A stretch of 64,000 bases of DNA from positions 15,934,001-15,998,000 of the forward strand of contig OX597836.1 in the NCBI GenBank assembly GCA_951406725.2, given 5' to 3'. Below, piece after piece: positions 5,330-61,008 of this stretch; within the stretch, counting starts at the first letter, position 1; each line of letters opens with the position of its first letter. The position numbers and the translations under genes are program-made. A model generated the notes under the pieces. The model was not told the DNA's origin and made no database searches. It saw nothing but the letters and a program-made list of their open reading frames with translations. The DNA is from Octopus vulgaris. Lineage: Eukaryota.

Positions 5330-5513
5330 ATGCATTTTTTTTTCTCTCCTTGTTTCTTTCTGTGTTTCTTTTCTGTGTATCTTTCTGTTGAAGAGCGTAG
5401 GCTCGAAACGTAAAAGACTTGTTTTATTTCTATTCCTGAGCGCCATACTAATACAATTGTTTGTTTGTATTCCACCTGCCTTCGTCTTTTGATTATTTTC
5501 ATAAAGCTTCCCG

Positions 5514-9104: not shown

Positions 9105-10126
9105 ATGGTAACAACAGTAATGGTGATGGGTGTGATGGAAATGATGATGATGATCATGATGATGGAGTAGGGGTGGCGGTGGTGACGATTGTGACAATGG
9201 TGGTGGTGGTGATGGGGAAGAATTCTGATTAATGATTATCTAGATCCAACCATGAGTCATATGGTTTAAAGCTAAACTGGAGTGTTATATGGTGGTGGCG
9301 GTGGTGGCGGTGGTGGGGGCCGGGTGGTGGTGGATAGTGATGATGGCAGTGGTGGTGGCAGTGGGGGCAATAGTGGTGATGATGGAGGTGGTGGTGGTAT
9401 GGTGGATAGTGGTGGTGGTGGCAGTGGTGATGGTGGTGGTGGTGGCAGTGGTGGTGGTGGCAGTGGTTGCGGTAGCAGTGATGGTGGTAGTGGTGGCAGT
9501 GGTTGTGATAGCAGTGGTGGCAGTGGTTGTGGTAACAGTGGTGGTGGTGGTGGTGATGGCAGTGTTTGTGGTAGCAGTGGTGGCAGAAGTGGTGGCAGAA
9601 GTGGTGGTGGTGGTGGTGGTGGTGGTGGTGGTGGTGGTGGTGGTGGTGGTGGTGGTGGTGGTGATGATGGTATGCACCAGAGGAGTGGTGTTCCTAGAGA
9701 TGGCAACAATAATAGAGAACAGAGGTCACATACACACACACACACACACATGTATTTTTCCCAAGCATTAAACTAATACACCTGTTTGTTGTTTCTACAC
9801 CTGTCTTCATCTTTTGTTTTCTGTAAATTTGAACTATATATATATATATCATCATCGTCATCATCATCACCATTTAACATCTGCCTTCCATACTGGCATG
9901 GGTTGGATGGTTTGACAGGAGTTTGCCCAGTAGAAGACTACACCAGGCTACTGTGTCTGTTTTGGCATAGATTTTCTGGCTGGATGCCCTTCCTAACAGC
10001 AGCCACCCCGCGGAGTGGACTGAGTTCTTCTTACGGGGTGGGGGGCACCATCTCCGGCAGGGTCACCAAGTAACAATGTACATACCTTGTGTATGTGTGT
10101 TGTTCGATTTTTGATTCTGATATATA

Positions 10127-19537: not shown

Positions 19538-20633
19538 GATCTATCTATCTATCCATCCTTACATGTTAAAAAGGCCAGTTAAAACCCAAACCATTAAAAA
19601 AGAGAATTCATGAGGCACATCATTATAACACTCAAATGACCAAAAATATGAATTAGTTAATCCCAAACTTGATTTTCACTATTAATATCTAGCAGAAGTA
19701 AGAGAGTTATACAAGGTCCAAGAGTTTTGTGCCATGGTACTTATCAAACTAGTCTCAGGTTGAAGGCCTGTGGGTTTATATGGCTGTTGATAAATAAATA
19801 AATATATTTCCCTATGGAATATTCTAGAATGAAATATAATAATGTCACATGGATAATTCAAAAAGTTTGCCTGTTATCTTGTTCAATAAGCAAATACATA
19901 AATAAATAAGAACAGAAATAAAGAGGGAAAAAAGTATATATATACTCATATTTTGAGTTCTATTTTTCCTGTTTACACCAAAATACCTATACATACAAAT
20001 ATACATACATACATACAAACAAACATGCATACATACATACATACAAACATATATATATATAGGGAGAGTTTACGAAAAAAACAAAAGACGAAGACAGGTG
20101 GTGTACAAAACAAACAGATGTATTAGTATAACGCTCAGGAATAGAAAAAGACTTTTATGTTTTGAGCCTACGCTCTTCTACAGAAAGGGACACAGAAAAA
20201 AAATGTGTTTAGTGGTTAACGATCTATCATGGCGTCTGACCATAAAATATTCAACAGGCTTTATTCAGTTTTTATTCAGTTTCTATCTCCTAGATTCATT
20301 CACAAGTCCTTGGTTGGCCATGATCTACACTAAAAGACATTTATTTGTTCATGGTGTCACACAATGGAACTGAACTTAAAGCAAGATGATTACAAAGTGA
20401 ATTTTTTAACTATACATCCAAGTTATATCTCTTATTTTGTTTTTTGCTTATATCTGTTATTTTCAGTACATAGGTGCAGGTGTGGCTGTGTGGTAAGAAA
20501 TTTGCTTCTCAGCCTCATGGTTTTGGTTTCAGTCCCACTGCATGGCATCTTTGAAAAGTCCTTCTATTATAACCCCAGCCACCAACTGAAGCTTTGAGAT
20601 TGGGTTTGCTAGATGCAAACTGAAAGAAGACTG

Positions 20634-25198: not shown

Positions 25199-25338
25199 AG
25201 ATATAAGTTGCCATTATTGATCACTAAATCCATAAGTTTTTTATTTTCTCTCTGTTTATTTCCTCATATTCCTCTCTGTTGAAGAGCATAGGCTCGAAAC
25301 ATAAAAGACTTTCTCTAACAGCTGGCCTCTCTAGCAAG

Positions 25339-26060
25339 TGGCCTCTCTAGGAAATGGAGGAGGAAAAGATTTCATTACCTTAAGTCAACAAGGATTTGTC
25401 TCCTTTTGACCGCTATTCGTAATTGACCCTTATGGCTTATGGATCCTAGGATGCCAGTTTGAATTTCCTGAAGTGCAAGCAGGGTCCGAAGACCTCCATC
25501 CTGGAGTTAAGGATGTTACCTGGATTGAGGGAACCCTTTAACATCCTTGTCTGTTTAGCTAAGCACAGTTTACAATGCTAGGTCCCATTTATGTTGGGTC
25601 CAGGATTTTCTAGGATCTTCCATGATATTACGTGTGGAGACCTGTCATCTTTCAGCACCACACATGGCTGGCTAAGGATGTAGCGTATCTCCCTTCTGAG
25701 ATCCTGAAAGAGGATCTGTGGTTGTAGAGGCATTGTTTGAACATGCTACTGGAACATCTAATGTATCTGTATGCAGGTGTTGGTGATGTTGTTTCTGTTA
25801 ATGTTGATGCTGCTGCTGCTGCTACAGAAACAGCATCTTCAGGAAATTCCTGCTGGCATCCTGGGATCCACATGCCACCAGGGTCAATTACAAATAGCAG
25901 TCAAAGAGAGACAATCCCTTATTGTTGACCTAGAGTAGGAAAGTCTTTTCTTCCTCCATTTTCTAAAGAGGCCATAGGCCAACAGGCTTAGGGTCTGAAG
26001 AAACACTGTAAAGCTCAGCTCTTTATGGACATGAAACCCAGGGTAACCCCATAGACTGGC
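25339..26060 (-). mobile_element. Penelope-like element: GIY-YIG endonuclease 3' end plus inverted pLTR
   Basis: The minus strand, across one frameshift, reads YIRCSSSMFKQCLYNHRSSFR...ATSLASHVW-LKDD...ISWKILE...HCKLCLAKQ...ILNSRMEVFGPCLHFRKFKL, the typical PLE endonuclease C-terminus. 25339-25473 and 25837-25974 are inverted repeats. Confidence 0.85.
25991..26049 (+). ncRNA. Type I hammerhead ribozyme motif with canonical core in the Penelope pLTR
   Basis: GGGT-CTGAAGA-[stem II TGTAAAG/CTTTATG, base partly decayed]-GAAACCC-A-GGGTA-ACCC. Predicted cleavage 3' of A26045. Confidence 0.7.
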
Positions 26061-26404
26061 CATATCTATCTTTATCTATATATGTATATACTCTATTTGT
26101 GGATTAACCAGGCTATTATTGGTTTCATGTTAAGAGAAATATATCTCTCAACAATTTTCAAGCCTGTTGCTTGGGACGTTGGTGTTTGTCTTTGTCTTGG
26201 ATGAAATTGACATTCTTCTCTTTTTTCTCTGCCTTTCCTATTTATTCACTCCTTCTCACTGTTTGACAATAACATATGTACACACAGACACACACACATA
26301 CACAAACATATCTAACTATCTATTTATACACATATAAACATGTGTGTGTGTGTGTGTGTGTGTGTGAATGGGATTCACAGTGGCAAAGTGGCTGAGTTCT
26401 TTTT

Positions 26405-26711: not shown

Positions 26712-26848
26712 TATCTATCTATCTAACTATCTATCTACACCAATATAAACATGTGTGTGTCTATGTGTGTGTATATACGTGACCTCGTGTGTAGCGTTGG
26801 GGATTTTTTTCCTCTGTCTTCCCTTCTCTGGATCTTTCCTTCTCCTAT

Positions 26849-26883
26849 GTTTCCGACAAAGAGCTCTGCTCGAAACGTTAAAC
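26849..26883 (+). ncRNA. Degenerate minimal hammerhead-like motif (CCGACAA core) in a related ~200-bp element (26780-26978)
   Basis: GTTT-CCGACAA-A-GAGC tct GCTC-GAAACGTT-AAAC. The element ends in (TA)n. Confidence 0.4.
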
Positions 26884-26972
26884 CTTCCTTCTTTCCTGAG
26901 TGTCCAATAATACTATATTTGTTCCACGTCCTTGCATTGTTGTGTTTTTTTTGTGCTTTCTTGTTTGGATTA

Positions 26973-30420: not shown

Positions 30421-30571
30421 ACAGAATAACATTGGAAAAACTTGTGTGTGTGGTATTGCTTCTTCATGTGTGAGTATGTAACAGATGTGTATATCTCTGT
30501 GTGTTGATATGGATGTGTATGTATGTATATATATATGTATATGTATCTATGTATATTTGTATGTATGTATG

Positions 30572-30622
<51 letters not shown>

Positions 30623-30678
30623 CAGTGGTGGTACCCCAGCATGGCCGCAGCCTTCAGGCTAAAACATTTTTAAGGATT

Positions 30679-30731
<53 letters not shown>

Positions 30732-31416
30732 GTACCGTGCTGTGTATCGTGCTTGTGTACTGACATCGCTTCTCTACTCATGTGAGACATGGACTCTGTA
30801 CAAACGTCAGGTAAGGGTCCTTGAACGTTTTCATCAGAGATGTCTCAGACACATTCTCAATGTTGGCTGGACCTCAAAAATTCCAGACACACAGATCCTG
30901 AGGACAGCTGATATCTTGGGTATTGAGGCGATGGTGCACAAGCACCAGTTGCGTTGGACTGGACACCTTATTATAATGAAGGATAGAAGGATTCCTAAGC
31001 AGATGCTCTATGGAGAACTTGTGAATGGAAGGAGACTCCGGCAGAAAACAAGGGTGCGATTTAAGGACTGTGTCAAGTCCTCGTTAAAGGTCTTTGATAT
31101 GCAGGACACTGACTGGGAGAACAATGCCTGTCATCGCCACAGATGGAGGAAGCAGGTTAAGGAGAGGATCGGCACTTTTGAGAGAGCACGTATCCAGCAT
31201 GAAGAACTTAAGCGAGCTGCGTGAAAGCACACGGCTCGTATAGTGAATGGGGAAAGCTTGGTCTGCAATGTTTGCAGTCGTGTATGCTTGTCAAGAGCAG
31301 GGCTCATTAGCCACCAATGGAGCCACAAATGCAAAATATAAGTTAGTCCTAGAGCGCACAATGTTCCTGAAGGTCGGCAATGGTGTTCCTCTTTCACAAG
31401 TGGACGGCCATCATCA
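30732..31416 (+). mobile_element. RTE (BovB-like) LINE, 5'-truncated ORF2 C-terminus
   Basis: YRACVLTSLLYSCETWTLY...ERFHQRCLRHIL...QLRWTGHL...RIPKQMLYGEL...RFKDCVK, then C2H2-like CNVCSRVCLSRAGLISH after a stop, then a (CAT)n tail. Confidence 0.92.
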
Positions 31417-59889: not shown

Positions 59890-61008
59890 GCTATCTAGCT
59901 ATCTATCTATCTATCTATCTATCTGCCTGTCTCTGTTTATCTATCCACCCATCTGTCCATCCATCTCTATATACATATATAGTCATAAATAACACAGCAA
60001 TATTTAGATGAACTTTCATTTAACAAAGGAAAAATCCAAATATCACAACAAATTCATTTCGTAACTCAAAAACAAACAAATTTGCCATGATATTTGGATT
60101 TTTCTTTTAAAGAAAAGTTAAATAAAAGTTCATCAAACAATTTTTCTGTCATATATGACTTTCTACACTCCTTATCTTTTCCTCTTGTGTATTACTATAT
60201 ATTCTATATGTTTTGTACAATGATACATTAAGGAGCTTTTTTTATGAGTACTACCAGATTACTTGAAACCATATATTGTGACATATGTTTAGTCGCTAGC
60301 CACTAAGCCTTTTTATTTTCTCTCTCTGCTTATTTCTGTGTTCCTTTCTGTTGAAGAGCATAGGCTCAAAATGTAAAAGACTTTCTTGTTTCCTGAGTGT
60401 TAAACTAATACATCTGTTTGTTGTTTGCACACCCATCTTTGTCTGTTACTTTGTTTTTTTTGTAAACTCCACAGAGCGTTGGGCCTCACTGAGGCAATGG
60501 CGAAGGACCGAGATCTCTGGAGATATGCTGTGACTGCAAAGACCTGGGCTGCTTCCTGCACCAGTTCCACATAGCCCCTGTCCCATTCAAAGTACCTTGG
60601 ATTCCAGAACATCCTGCTGTGCTTGAGGAGACCTGTTGAGTCAAGTACATGAACATTGAAATAAATATCAATGGAAATAGTAGTGGTGATACCTGTGCCG
60701 GTGGCACATAAAAAGCACCATCCGAACGTGGCCGATGCCAGCGCCGCCTTGGCTGGCTTCCGTGCCAGTGGCACGTTAAAAGCACCAACCAATCGTGGCC
60801 GATGCCAGACTCCTCTGCAGGTGGCATGTAAAAAGCACCCACTACACTTGCGGAGTGGTTGGTGTTAGGAAGGGTATCCAGCTGTAGAAACACTGCCAGA
60901 TCAGACTGGAGCCTGGTGCAGCCCCTGGCTTCCCAGACCCCGGTCAAACCGTCCAACCCGTGCTAGTGCAGAAAACGGGACGCTAAACGATGATGATGAT
61001 GATGATGA

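What the first reader, a model, noticed from the sequence alone, without database searches (positions are those of the whole stretch)
25339..26060. Penelope remnant with inverted pLTR and a canonical-core hammerhead
Seen: a GIY-YIG C-terminus on the minus strand and ~135-bp inverted repeats. Beyond the right arm lies GGGT-CTGAAGA...GAAACCC-A-GGGTA-ACCC, with all core nucleotides, a GUA site and a 1-nt stem III loop. The element begins just after a variant-core hammerhead element (25272-25307). Known: PLEs form inverted or tandem pLTRs and encode type I hammerheads, and very short stem III loops favour dimeric folding. Inference: this links the window's hammerheads to an autonomous PLE lineage, and two hammerheads on one strand ~700 nt apart could excise a defined RNA.
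Basis: partly seen in the sequence, partly recalled or inferred. Interest (0 to 1): 0.72.

Follow-up and report, generated by a model that had tools for sequence, protein, structure and literature searches.

The report
Dead Hydra-clade Penelope copy, split endonuclease
This is a decayed, shortened copy of a known kind of jumping gene (Hydra-clade Penelope element) whose mirror-image end carries the usual hammerhead-ribozyme motif, next to an unrelated element's hammerhead likely by chance; the one unusual trait is that its family's DNA-cutting enzyme carries a 110-190-residue stretch, predicted to be a floppy loop, inside its signature motif.

Summary
Observation confirmed; interpretation half right. 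25323-25823 (minus) is a 5'-truncated, dead copy of a Hydra-clade Penelope-like element, a sister family of published Hydra-1_Obim. 25837-26076 is an inverted copy of its 3' end, carrying the type I hammerhead that normally follows the ORF on the sense strand. Across 67 family copies the core is conserved, position 7 is free, and stems I and III covary. This copy keeps the core but has lost two basal stem II pairs. Inverted 3' arms occur at 19 of 70 loci. In 11 of 12 two-armed insertions exactly one arm has a ~50-nt tail, a known Penelope signature. The upstream variant hammerhead belongs to a separate Neptune-type element and is truncated and decayed, so a jointly excised 743-nt RNA is unlikely. 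The scan has already reported Hydra-clade ends on other DNA. New here: the family's GIY and YIG strands are separated by an in-frame Asn/Ser/Thr-rich stretch of 112-191 residues (tyrosine spacing 11-20 in 43 of 43 homologs, 27 in Hydra-1_Obim). The flanks show purifying selection and a predicted GIY-YIG fold. Cleavage and expression are untested.

The parts
25207..25315 (+). 3' end fragment of a separate, very abundant Neptune-type Penelope-like element; its last ~80 nt and TA tail are missing
   Evidence: 88-94% identical to 40 of 40 scored genomic hits; longer copies lead upstream into RT, a CX4CxxC linker and a CCHH-type GIY-YIG
25270..25307 (+). Variant-core hammerhead motif of the Neptune-type element (U at position 6); in this copy stem III palindrome lost (ACGU to ACAU) and one stem I mismatch
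25316..25322 (.). 7-nt filler at the tail-to-tail junction where both elements have lost their 3' ends
   Evidence: matches neither family's continuation
25323..25412 (-). 3' UTR of the direct Hydra arm including a 16-nt duplication; its hammerhead and end are missing
   Evidence: alignment to family consensus
25413..25768 (-). C-terminal half of the Hydra-type GIY-YIG endonuclease (YIG strand to stop codon), dead: frameshift deletions near 25768 and 25656, three in-frame stops, YIG Gly to Arg, conserved Arg to Cys, conserved Glu to Lys
25769..25823 (-). Last ~18 codons of the Asn/Ser/Thr-rich stretch between the GIY and YIG strands; 5' truncation point at 25823
25824..25836 (+). 13-nt filler between the two arms, resembling a sense-strand piece of the element near 25783-25797 (likely templated)
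   Evidence: sequence inspection
25837..26076 (+). Inverted copy of the element's 3' end (last 19 codons, 3' UTR, hammerhead, short end without the ~50-nt tail), followed by TA-rich sequence
   Evidence: 85% to consensus; short-end class
25991..26049 (+). Type I hammerhead motif: stem I 25991-25994/26046-26049, core 25995-26001, unpaired A at 26002, stem II 26003-26032, GAA 26033-26035, stem III 26036-26044, predicted site after 26045

Best explanation
The locus is a dead, 5'-truncated copy of a Hydra-clade Penelope-like retroelement with an inverted copy of its own 3' end attached, likely made in one insertion event, and its hammerhead is the family's ordinary 3' motif. Shown: in intact copies the order is RT, CxCX5C linker, GIY strand, Asn/Ser/Thr-rich stretch, YIG strand, stop, 3' UTR, hammerhead, short end, optional ~50-nt tail, (TA)n. 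Inferred from the Anolis Poseidon experiments (PMC11167929): the element's protein nicked both strands of a (TA)n tract and primed two cDNAs at two internal sites of an uncleaved RNA. The two cDNAs stopped early (about 0.65 kb and 0.24 kb) and were joined head to head through a 13-nt filler. Inferred: the target was the TA tail of an older Neptune-type 3' fragment, and a deletion later removed the facing 3' ends of both elements, including the direct arm's hammerhead. The ancestral ribozyme likely cleaved only as a dimer or with protein help. This copy likely cleaves poorly or not at all, because two CpG changes broke the base of stem II. The family's endonuclease is predicted to have kept its fold with the low-complexity stretch as a disordered surface loop.
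For: Copies at 72-86% identity across many contigs, from 40 scored of 1691 candidates. In most copies the hammerhead directly follows the endonuclease on the sense strand. RWK, DKT, CxCX5C, and CxxC and CxH around the conserved E and N are all in the consensus. About 80% identity over 242 RT residues and about 63% over the endonuclease C-terminus to Hydra-1_Obim, counted by eye against the supplement text. Published Hydra hammerheads have the same ACNN-N-NNGU stem III. In 67 copies core columns are 94% conserved against 82% for other columns; position 7 is T34/A23/C9/G1. 84% of pair cells are paired; there are 59 two-sided changes against 26 in shuffles (0 of 500), mainly GC/AU in stem I and CG/UA in stem III. 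Inverted hammerhead-bearing arms at the 5' end in 19 of 70 loci. Exactly one long-tailed arm in 11 of 12 head-to-head insertions, a partial tail in the 12th, with 27 of 67 ends long overall. Decay of this copy: 13% and 9% from consensus, 28 of 66 CpG positions decayed, frameshifts, stops, lost catalytic residues; stem II hairpin -4.0 against -11.2 kcal/mol in an undamaged copy. Loop: stop-free consensus of 141, 183 and 191 codons in 3 of 4 groups; 86 of 114 indels of 3 nt or more are multiples of three; dN/dS 0.06-0.30 on the flanks in 6 of 6 pairs; model matches I-TevI at Z 9.5, rmsd 2.2, 90 of 92 residues.
Against: No Rfam hammerhead hit and no Pfam hit for this family's own endonuclease; Pfam GIY-YIG matches 20 of 70 aligned relatives at E<=0.1. 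The count of covarying pairs does not beat shuffles (98 of 500), and related sequences can beat such shuffles without structure. The two arms differ by a 16-nt duplication and in divergence (10% against 7% non-CpG), which a single event does not predict unless one arm lost the duplication later. Only 16 of 36 single-copy inserts have lengths divisible by three, group 2's consensus is frameshifted, and triplet-like repeats slip by three even when non-coding. No phylogeny with published sequences was run. The priming mechanism is borrowed from a different clade.
Confidence: 0.9

Rival explanations
1. The two plus-strand hammerheads act together and release a defined 743-nt hairpin RNA.
For: Same strand, sites after 25303 and 26045; the piece between would fold back with 129 pairs between the arms; the downstream core is complete.
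Against: Different clades. The upstream motif has U6, a lost stem III palindrome and a stem I mismatch. Hetero-duplexes of the two stem III sequences have positive predicted energy, +0.8 and +1.0 kcal/mol, against -11.6 for the Hydra homodimer. In context stem I pairs have probability 0.0 and stem III 0.02 (such models can also miss real hammerheads). 0 of 24 other upstream-family loci show the arrangement.
Confidence: 0.04
2. The unit is a non-autonomous element amplified as such (MITE-like with terminal inverted repeats, or a retrozyme).
For: Nearly all top hits of the first search stop at the same place, near query position 480.
Against: That edge is where the fast-evolving low-complexity stretch begins; copies continue upstream to staggered ends, some to the start codon. 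Inverted arms range from about 75 to 625 nt. No tandem units were seen, and the sequence is ORF-derived.
Confidence: 0.02
3. The missing 3' end of the direct arm dates from integration (aberrant priming or target deletion inside the Neptune-type copy), not from a later deletion. This concerns only the left junction.
For: The arm stops exactly at the end of the 16-nt duplication, and a 7-nt filler lies at the joint.
Against: Both elements normally end in (TA)n and both lack their ends here, which one deletion explains; a similar fusion of the two families occurs at L036.
Confidence: 0.2
4. The Asn/Ser/Thr-rich stretch is an intron or a non-coding repeat expansion, not a protein loop.
For: Penelope-like elements can retain introns (PMC4209133, text read); the stretch is triplet-repetitive and barely alignable between groups.
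Against: Open and in frame in 3 of 4 group consensuses, and stop-free in frame in 7 of 36 single copies whose inserts have lengths divisible by three (L023, L028, L005, L031, L036, L086, L033) against 18-29 stops in frame 3. One natural 321-codon frame runs from before the linker to the stop. The 3' end is A/C-rich with no pyrimidine tract. Hydra-1_Obim has a short Asn/Ser/Thr-rich version in its protein. Frame 2 is also nearly stop-free, so lack of stops alone is weak.
Confidence: 0.08

Closest known systems
Hydra clade of C-terminal-endonuclease Penelope-like elements, nearest Hydra-1_Obim of Octopus bimaculoides (Craig et al. 2021, PMC8557442; section 11, passages, supplement files S1, S2 and S7 text read)
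   Same: Single ORF with RT and C-terminal GIY-YIG; RWK, DKT, CxCX5C, CxxC and CxH motifs; sense-strand hammerhead with 4-bp palindromic stem III and 1-nt loop; (TA)n targets; about 80% RT identity by eye.
   Different: Different hammerhead sequence (12-bp bulged stem II, A-U closing pair) and 3' UTR. Tyrosine-to-tyrosine spacing across GIY-YIG about 119-198 residues against 27. At least four insert groups.
Poseidon PAc of Anolis carolinensis (Frangieh et al. 2024, PMC11167929; main text read)
   Same: Two fixed 3' ends separated by a tail; copies retain the sequence beyond the hammerhead site, so the template was uncleaved; AT-rich targets.
   Different: Different clade; tail about 50 nt here against 30-40; hammerhead lies about 190 nt upstream of the next start codon rather than overlapping it (inferred); no biochemistry here.
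Minimal and dimeric type I hammerheads of metazoan PLEs (Cervera and de la Pena 2014, PMC4209133; parts 1-2 of 4 read)
   Same: Long helix II, short helix I, unpaired nucleotide before stem II, palindromic stem III; pairs of motifs 100-700 bp apart on opposite strands from truncated elements.
   Different: A10.1-U11.1 (or A.G) instead of the usual G-C; a 4-bp palindromic stem III rather than none.
Metazoan non-LTR retrozymes (Li, Clavereau, Pollet, bioRxiv 10.64898/2026.07.22.740005; part 1 of 5 read)
   Same: Type I hammerhead of PLE origin.
   Different: Retrozymes are non-coding tandem repeats with one matching ribozyme per unit; this locus is ORF-derived, not tandem, and its two motifs are unrelated.
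Neptune clade PLEs (as described in PMC8557442), for the upstream fragment
   Same: C-terminal GIY-YIG with CCHH and a CX2-5CxxC linker; microsatellite targets.
   Different: Hammerhead core has U at position 6 in 32 of 35 copies and A in none; clade assignment is by motifs only.

Membership tests
Hydra clade PLE | Single ORF, RT followed by C-terminal GIY-YIG endonuclease | tested here: met
   Consensus pieces read open from the start codon through RT and from the linker to a stop after the endonuclease
Hydra clade PLE | N-terminal RWK motif | tested here: met
   MRWKAF in the 5' consensus
Hydra clade PLE | DKG modified to DKT | tested here: met
   FSDKTK
Hydra clade PLE | CxCX5C linker before the endonuclease | tested here: met
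   CSC-x5-C in 4 of 4 group consensuses
Hydra clade PLE | [quoted passage not shown] | tested here: met
   CKLC before E and CLH after N, present also in the window copy
Hydra clade PLE | Canonical hammerhead on the sense strand near the 3' end | tested here: met
   same architecture as File S2 entries
Hydra clade PLE | Insertion into (TA)n; length generally under 3 kb | tested here: met
   Most of 67 ends run into TA-type or related microsatellites; near-complete copy L090 spans about 2.9 kb; groups with longer inserts would exceed 3 kb
Hydra clade PLE | RT phylogeny groups with Hydra | not tested
   Published sequences were compared by eye only: about 50 differences in 242 RT residues against Hydra-1_Obim
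Type I hammerhead ribozyme | Core C3 U4 G5 A6 N7 G8 A9, G12 A13 A14, A15.1-U16.1, H17 | tested here: met
   Complete in the window copy and in 37 of 67 copies
Type I hammerhead ribozyme | Three helices around the core, open ends in stem I | tested here: inconclusive
   Met for the family (81-86% paired per helix); window copy has 18 of 22 pairs and lacks stem II pairs 2 and 3
Type I hammerhead ribozyme | Self-cleavage after H17 | not testable with these tools
   Needs an in vitro assay
GIY-YIG endonuclease | I-TevI-like fold with both signature strands in the sheet | tested here: met
   Model of L036 frame: strands 49-59 and 200-211, loop between them mostly pLDDT under 50; best match 1ln0_A, Z 9.5, rmsd 2.2, 90 aligned; the top five are GIY-YIG-type or related folds by title. 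Foldseek found nothing at E<=0.001. The model was guided by relatives without the loop.
GIY-YIG endonuclease | Catalytic Gly/Arg/His/Glu/Asn intact in the window copy | tested here: not met
   Gly to Arg, Arg to Cys, Glu to Lys, frameshifts and stops; intact in the family consensus
GIY-YIG endonuclease | Short spacing between GIY and YIG (about 10 residues; recalled) | tested here: not met
   112-191-residue insert; tyrosine spacing 11-20 in 43 of 43 measurable homologs among 150 listed
Non-LTR retrozyme | Non-coding tandem units, each with a matching hammerhead | tested here: not met
   ORF-derived, staggered 5' ends, two unrelated motifs
Neptune clade PLE (upstream fragment) | CX2-5CxxC linker plus CCHH-type C-terminal GIY-YIG | tested here: met
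   Consensus of 12 loci; 8 of those 12 carry the variant hammerhead downstream on the same strand; no tree run
Neptune clade PLE (upstream fragment) | Canonical hammerhead core | tested here: not met
   Position 6 is T in 32 and C in 3 of 35 copies

The most novel reading that the evidence does not exclude
Octopus Hydra elements went through several rounds of amplification with an endonuclease whose two signature strands are split by a 110-190+ residue disordered Asn/Ser/Thr loop, grown from a ~20-residue seed and rewritten between subfamilies, and the loop was kept because it works, for example in particle assembly or in giving the dimer reach to nick both strands of (TA)n targets.
Probability: 0.2. 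Interest if true: 0.6.

Novelty: new variant of a known kind. Interest (0 to 1): 0.3.

Why it matters
The locus itself is ordinary genomic debris and needs no special function. The family offers two usable things. First, a natural series of GIY-YIG endonucleases with very long inserts inside the signature motif, under purifying selection on the flanks; this bears on how far the fold tolerates insertion and explains why DNA searches break such elements in two. Second, a count for the Hydra clade showing one long and one short end per two-armed insertion, which fits the two-start-site mechanism shown in vitro for a Poseidon element and suggests both arms come from one reaction.

Tried and rejected
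Rfam scan of the window was swamped by microsatellite matches (150 of 406 rows shown, none a hammerhead); a scan of 25200-26100 gave no hammerhead. Pfam on this family's endonuclease pieces: nothing relevant (the window piece was in the wrong frame). Word-indexed protein searches found nothing; PDB sequence search gave no significant match; Foldseek none. Sequencing runs: no RNA holder listed. One run only guessed to be RNA had contigs over the two hammerhead regions and none over 25415-25774; this is no evidence either way. Naiad assignment rejected: the endonuclease is C-terminal and a canonical hammerhead is present. The upstream family's motifs were not found in the Craig supplement (3 short motifs). 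'Solo pLTR with a fixed 5' edge' rejected. The dN/dS values for the full endonuclease C-terminus were discarded because consensus indels put them out of register; they were redone on 130 codons. Two truncated hammerhead copies (L106, L107) of the 69 found were left out of alignment A1; segmental duplicates L033 and L038 both stayed in. Two tail-to-tail loci (L014, L083) of 14 with several motifs were left out of the long/short count. Lunse et al. 2016 (PMC5785218) is not held, so published core variants could not be checked. Literature searches for the loop or for later Hydra work: (6 listed, none on this by title and abstract start; only Craig 2021; 20 of 51 listed; only Craig 2021 relevant), scan notes (none). 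bioRxiv supplements are closed and subscription papers and Repbase/Dfam are not searchable, so the family or its loop may be recorded there.

Full report
Setting. The window lies in a 2.8-Gb animal genome (G000, contig C23) rich in microsatellites. I call it octopus-like because the element's protein is close to a published octopus family; the species was not determined.

Observation. The minus strand at 25416-25768 encodes the C-terminal half of an endonuclease in two frames. The arms 25339-25473 and 25837-25974 are 80% identical. The hammerhead at 25991-26049 has every core nucleotide, a GUA site ending at 26045 and the palindrome ACCC-A-GGGU. A strict descriptor finds only this site in the window and nothing in 150 of 150 shuffles. 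Rfam does not detect it.

Family and anatomy. A DNA search gave 94 matches from 40 scored of 1691 candidates, the long ones at 73-86% identity. In most copies the hammerhead follows the endonuclease directly on the sense strand. The window copy is therefore a direct arm (minus, 25823 down to 25323) that has lost its end, plus an inverted copy of the 3' end (plus, 25837-26076) that kept the hammerhead, joined by a 13-nt filler. Other copies extend upstream to staggered points, a few to the start codon. The consensus has RWK, DKT, a CxCX5C linker, and CxxC and CxH around the conserved E and N. These are the features that define the Hydra clade in Craig et al. 2021 (PMC8557442, section 11). Their list includes Hydra-1_Obim from Octopus bimaculoides. 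By eye this family differs from it at about 50 of 242 RT residues and about 39 of 105 endonuclease residues, and it has a different hammerhead, so it is a sister family.

The hammerhead. In 67 copies (alignment A1) the 11 core columns are 94% conserved against 82% elsewhere, position 7 varies freely, and 37 of 67 copies keep the whole core. For the three-helix structure 84% of cells pair, against 28-48% when partners are slid. Stem I switches between G-C and A-U (20 against 27 copies) and stem III between C-G and U-A (37 against 16). Cells with two-sided change exceed 500 of 500 shuffles, but the number of such pairs does not (98 of 500 reach it), and relatedness inflates these tests. A 1-nt loop cannot close in a monomer; the palindrome self-pairs between two molecules at -11.6 kcal/mol, as proposed for PLE hammerheads (PMC4209133). 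In the window copy two G-to-A changes at CpG sites (26005, 26031) break the second and third stem II pairs; the hairpin drops to -4.0 from -11.2 kcal/mol. The coding part carries frameshifts, stops and lost catalytic residues.

How the structure arose. Inverted, hammerhead-bearing 3' arms sit at the 5' end of 19 of 70 loci, as described for PLEs. Ends fall into a short class and a class with about 50 more bases (27 of 67 long). In 11 of 12 head-to-head insertions exactly one arm is long, and the twelfth has a partial tail on one arm; about 0.002 if ends were independent (hand calculation). Craig et al. note a tail at one end only. Frangieh et al. show in vitro that a Poseidon protein nicks and extends both strands, starts at two internal RNA sites that bound the tail, and uses mostly uncleaved RNA. 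The tail appears to run on into the 5' UTR: copies L070 and L090 begin within or right after it, and the published Hydra-1_Obim sequence starts with a similar stretch (by eye), suggesting a longer-than-unit or circular template. I infer one two-primed insertion; the window's inverted arm is the short one, so the lost end likely had the tail. Earlier scan notes had suggested the two-end pattern for other families; the count here is my own. Against a single event, the arms differ by a 16-nt duplication, which also differs within the insertion at L033.

The upstream motif. 25207-25315 is a different repeat of about 200 bp ending in (TA)n. Longer copies lead into an RT, a CX4CxxC linker and a CCHH-type GIY-YIG, the Neptune pattern. 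Its core has U at position 6 in 32 of 35 copies. The window copy is cut after 25315 and has lost the ACGU palindrome. The two stem III sequences are not predicted to pair with each other, and 0 of 24 other loci of this family have a Hydra hammerhead downstream on the same strand. Both families end in and target TA tracts, so nesting followed by a deletion is the simplest account of the joint.

The unusual trait. Between the GIY-equivalent strand and the YIG strand, 36 copies carry 221-1119 nt, some lengths inflated by later insertions or cut by deletions. Group consensuses are open and in frame at 141, 183 and 191 codons in 3 of 4 groups; one clean copy has 112. About a quarter of residues are Asn and a fifth Ser; 86 of 114 longer indels are multiples of three. 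Among 150 database homologs, the 43 that could be measured have tyrosine spacings of 11-20; the best hit, P0001, is itself a long-insert fragment that could not be measured. Hydra-1_Obim has 27, already Asn/Ser/Thr-rich. Groups with different inserts show dN/dS of 0.06-0.30 over 130 flanking codons in 6 of 6 comparisons, so the enzyme stayed under selection while the loop changed. A model of a natural 321-codon frame (L036) places strands at 49-59 and 200-211 with a low-confidence region between, and matches I-TevI at Z 9.5. Triplet slippage in this repeat-rich genome probably drove the growth; a function is possible but unshown. I found no report of it.

Verdict. A real hammerhead motif in a dead copy of a known clade, in a known arrangement; the two-ribozyme cassette is not supported. 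The family is a modest new variant through its split endonuclease motif. Interest 0.3.

Noticed in passing
window 5385-5412 (+), 9757-9849 (+), 20049-20203 (-), 60310-60466 (+): Four more 3' ends of the Neptune-type family; the copy at 5385 keeps a 5-bp stem I, stem II and the ACGU palindrome with U at core position 6. An ancestral A6U core in a heavily amplified family may be inactive or a tolerated variant.
   Followed up: partly
window 25235-25324 against 26015-26074, run contigs: Summed contig depth over the Neptune-type motif is about 50-60 times that over the Hydra hammerhead in three runs; not a copy number, but the family is far more abundant.
   Followed up: no
window 25488-25715: Contigs from runs under two other organism labels match this copy at 95-100%, closer than any paralog found, hinting that the insertion predates their split; two of the three runs share a study.
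   Followed up: no
L036 about 5370-5400: A Hydra 3' UTR fused in the same orientation to the stem II-GAAA part of the Neptune-type motif, probably by deletion.
   Followed up: partly
L014:2019-2221 and L083:4517-4773: Two Hydra ends of different subfamilies facing each other across one TA tract, the likely state of the window's left junction before deletion.
   Followed up: partly
L031, L032, L038, L033 (G000 C5, 28.25-28.70 Mb): The same Hydra insertion lies in four segmental duplicates at 87-99.5% identity, two of them inverted about 10 kb apart.
   Followed up: no
alignment A1, column 54: 14 of 67 copies have G at position 11.1 opposite A10.1, a mismatch where most hammerheads have a purine-pyrimidine pair; it marks a subfamily.
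   Followed up: no
window 26820-26960 (+): Another decayed hammerhead-like end (stem II loop then GAAACGUU) with a T-rich tail, resembling but distinct from the Neptune-type family.
   Followed up: no
window 30508-31221 (+): Open frame whose C-terminal part resembles the end of a LINE reverse transcriptase (recalled resemblance, not tested).
   Followed up: no
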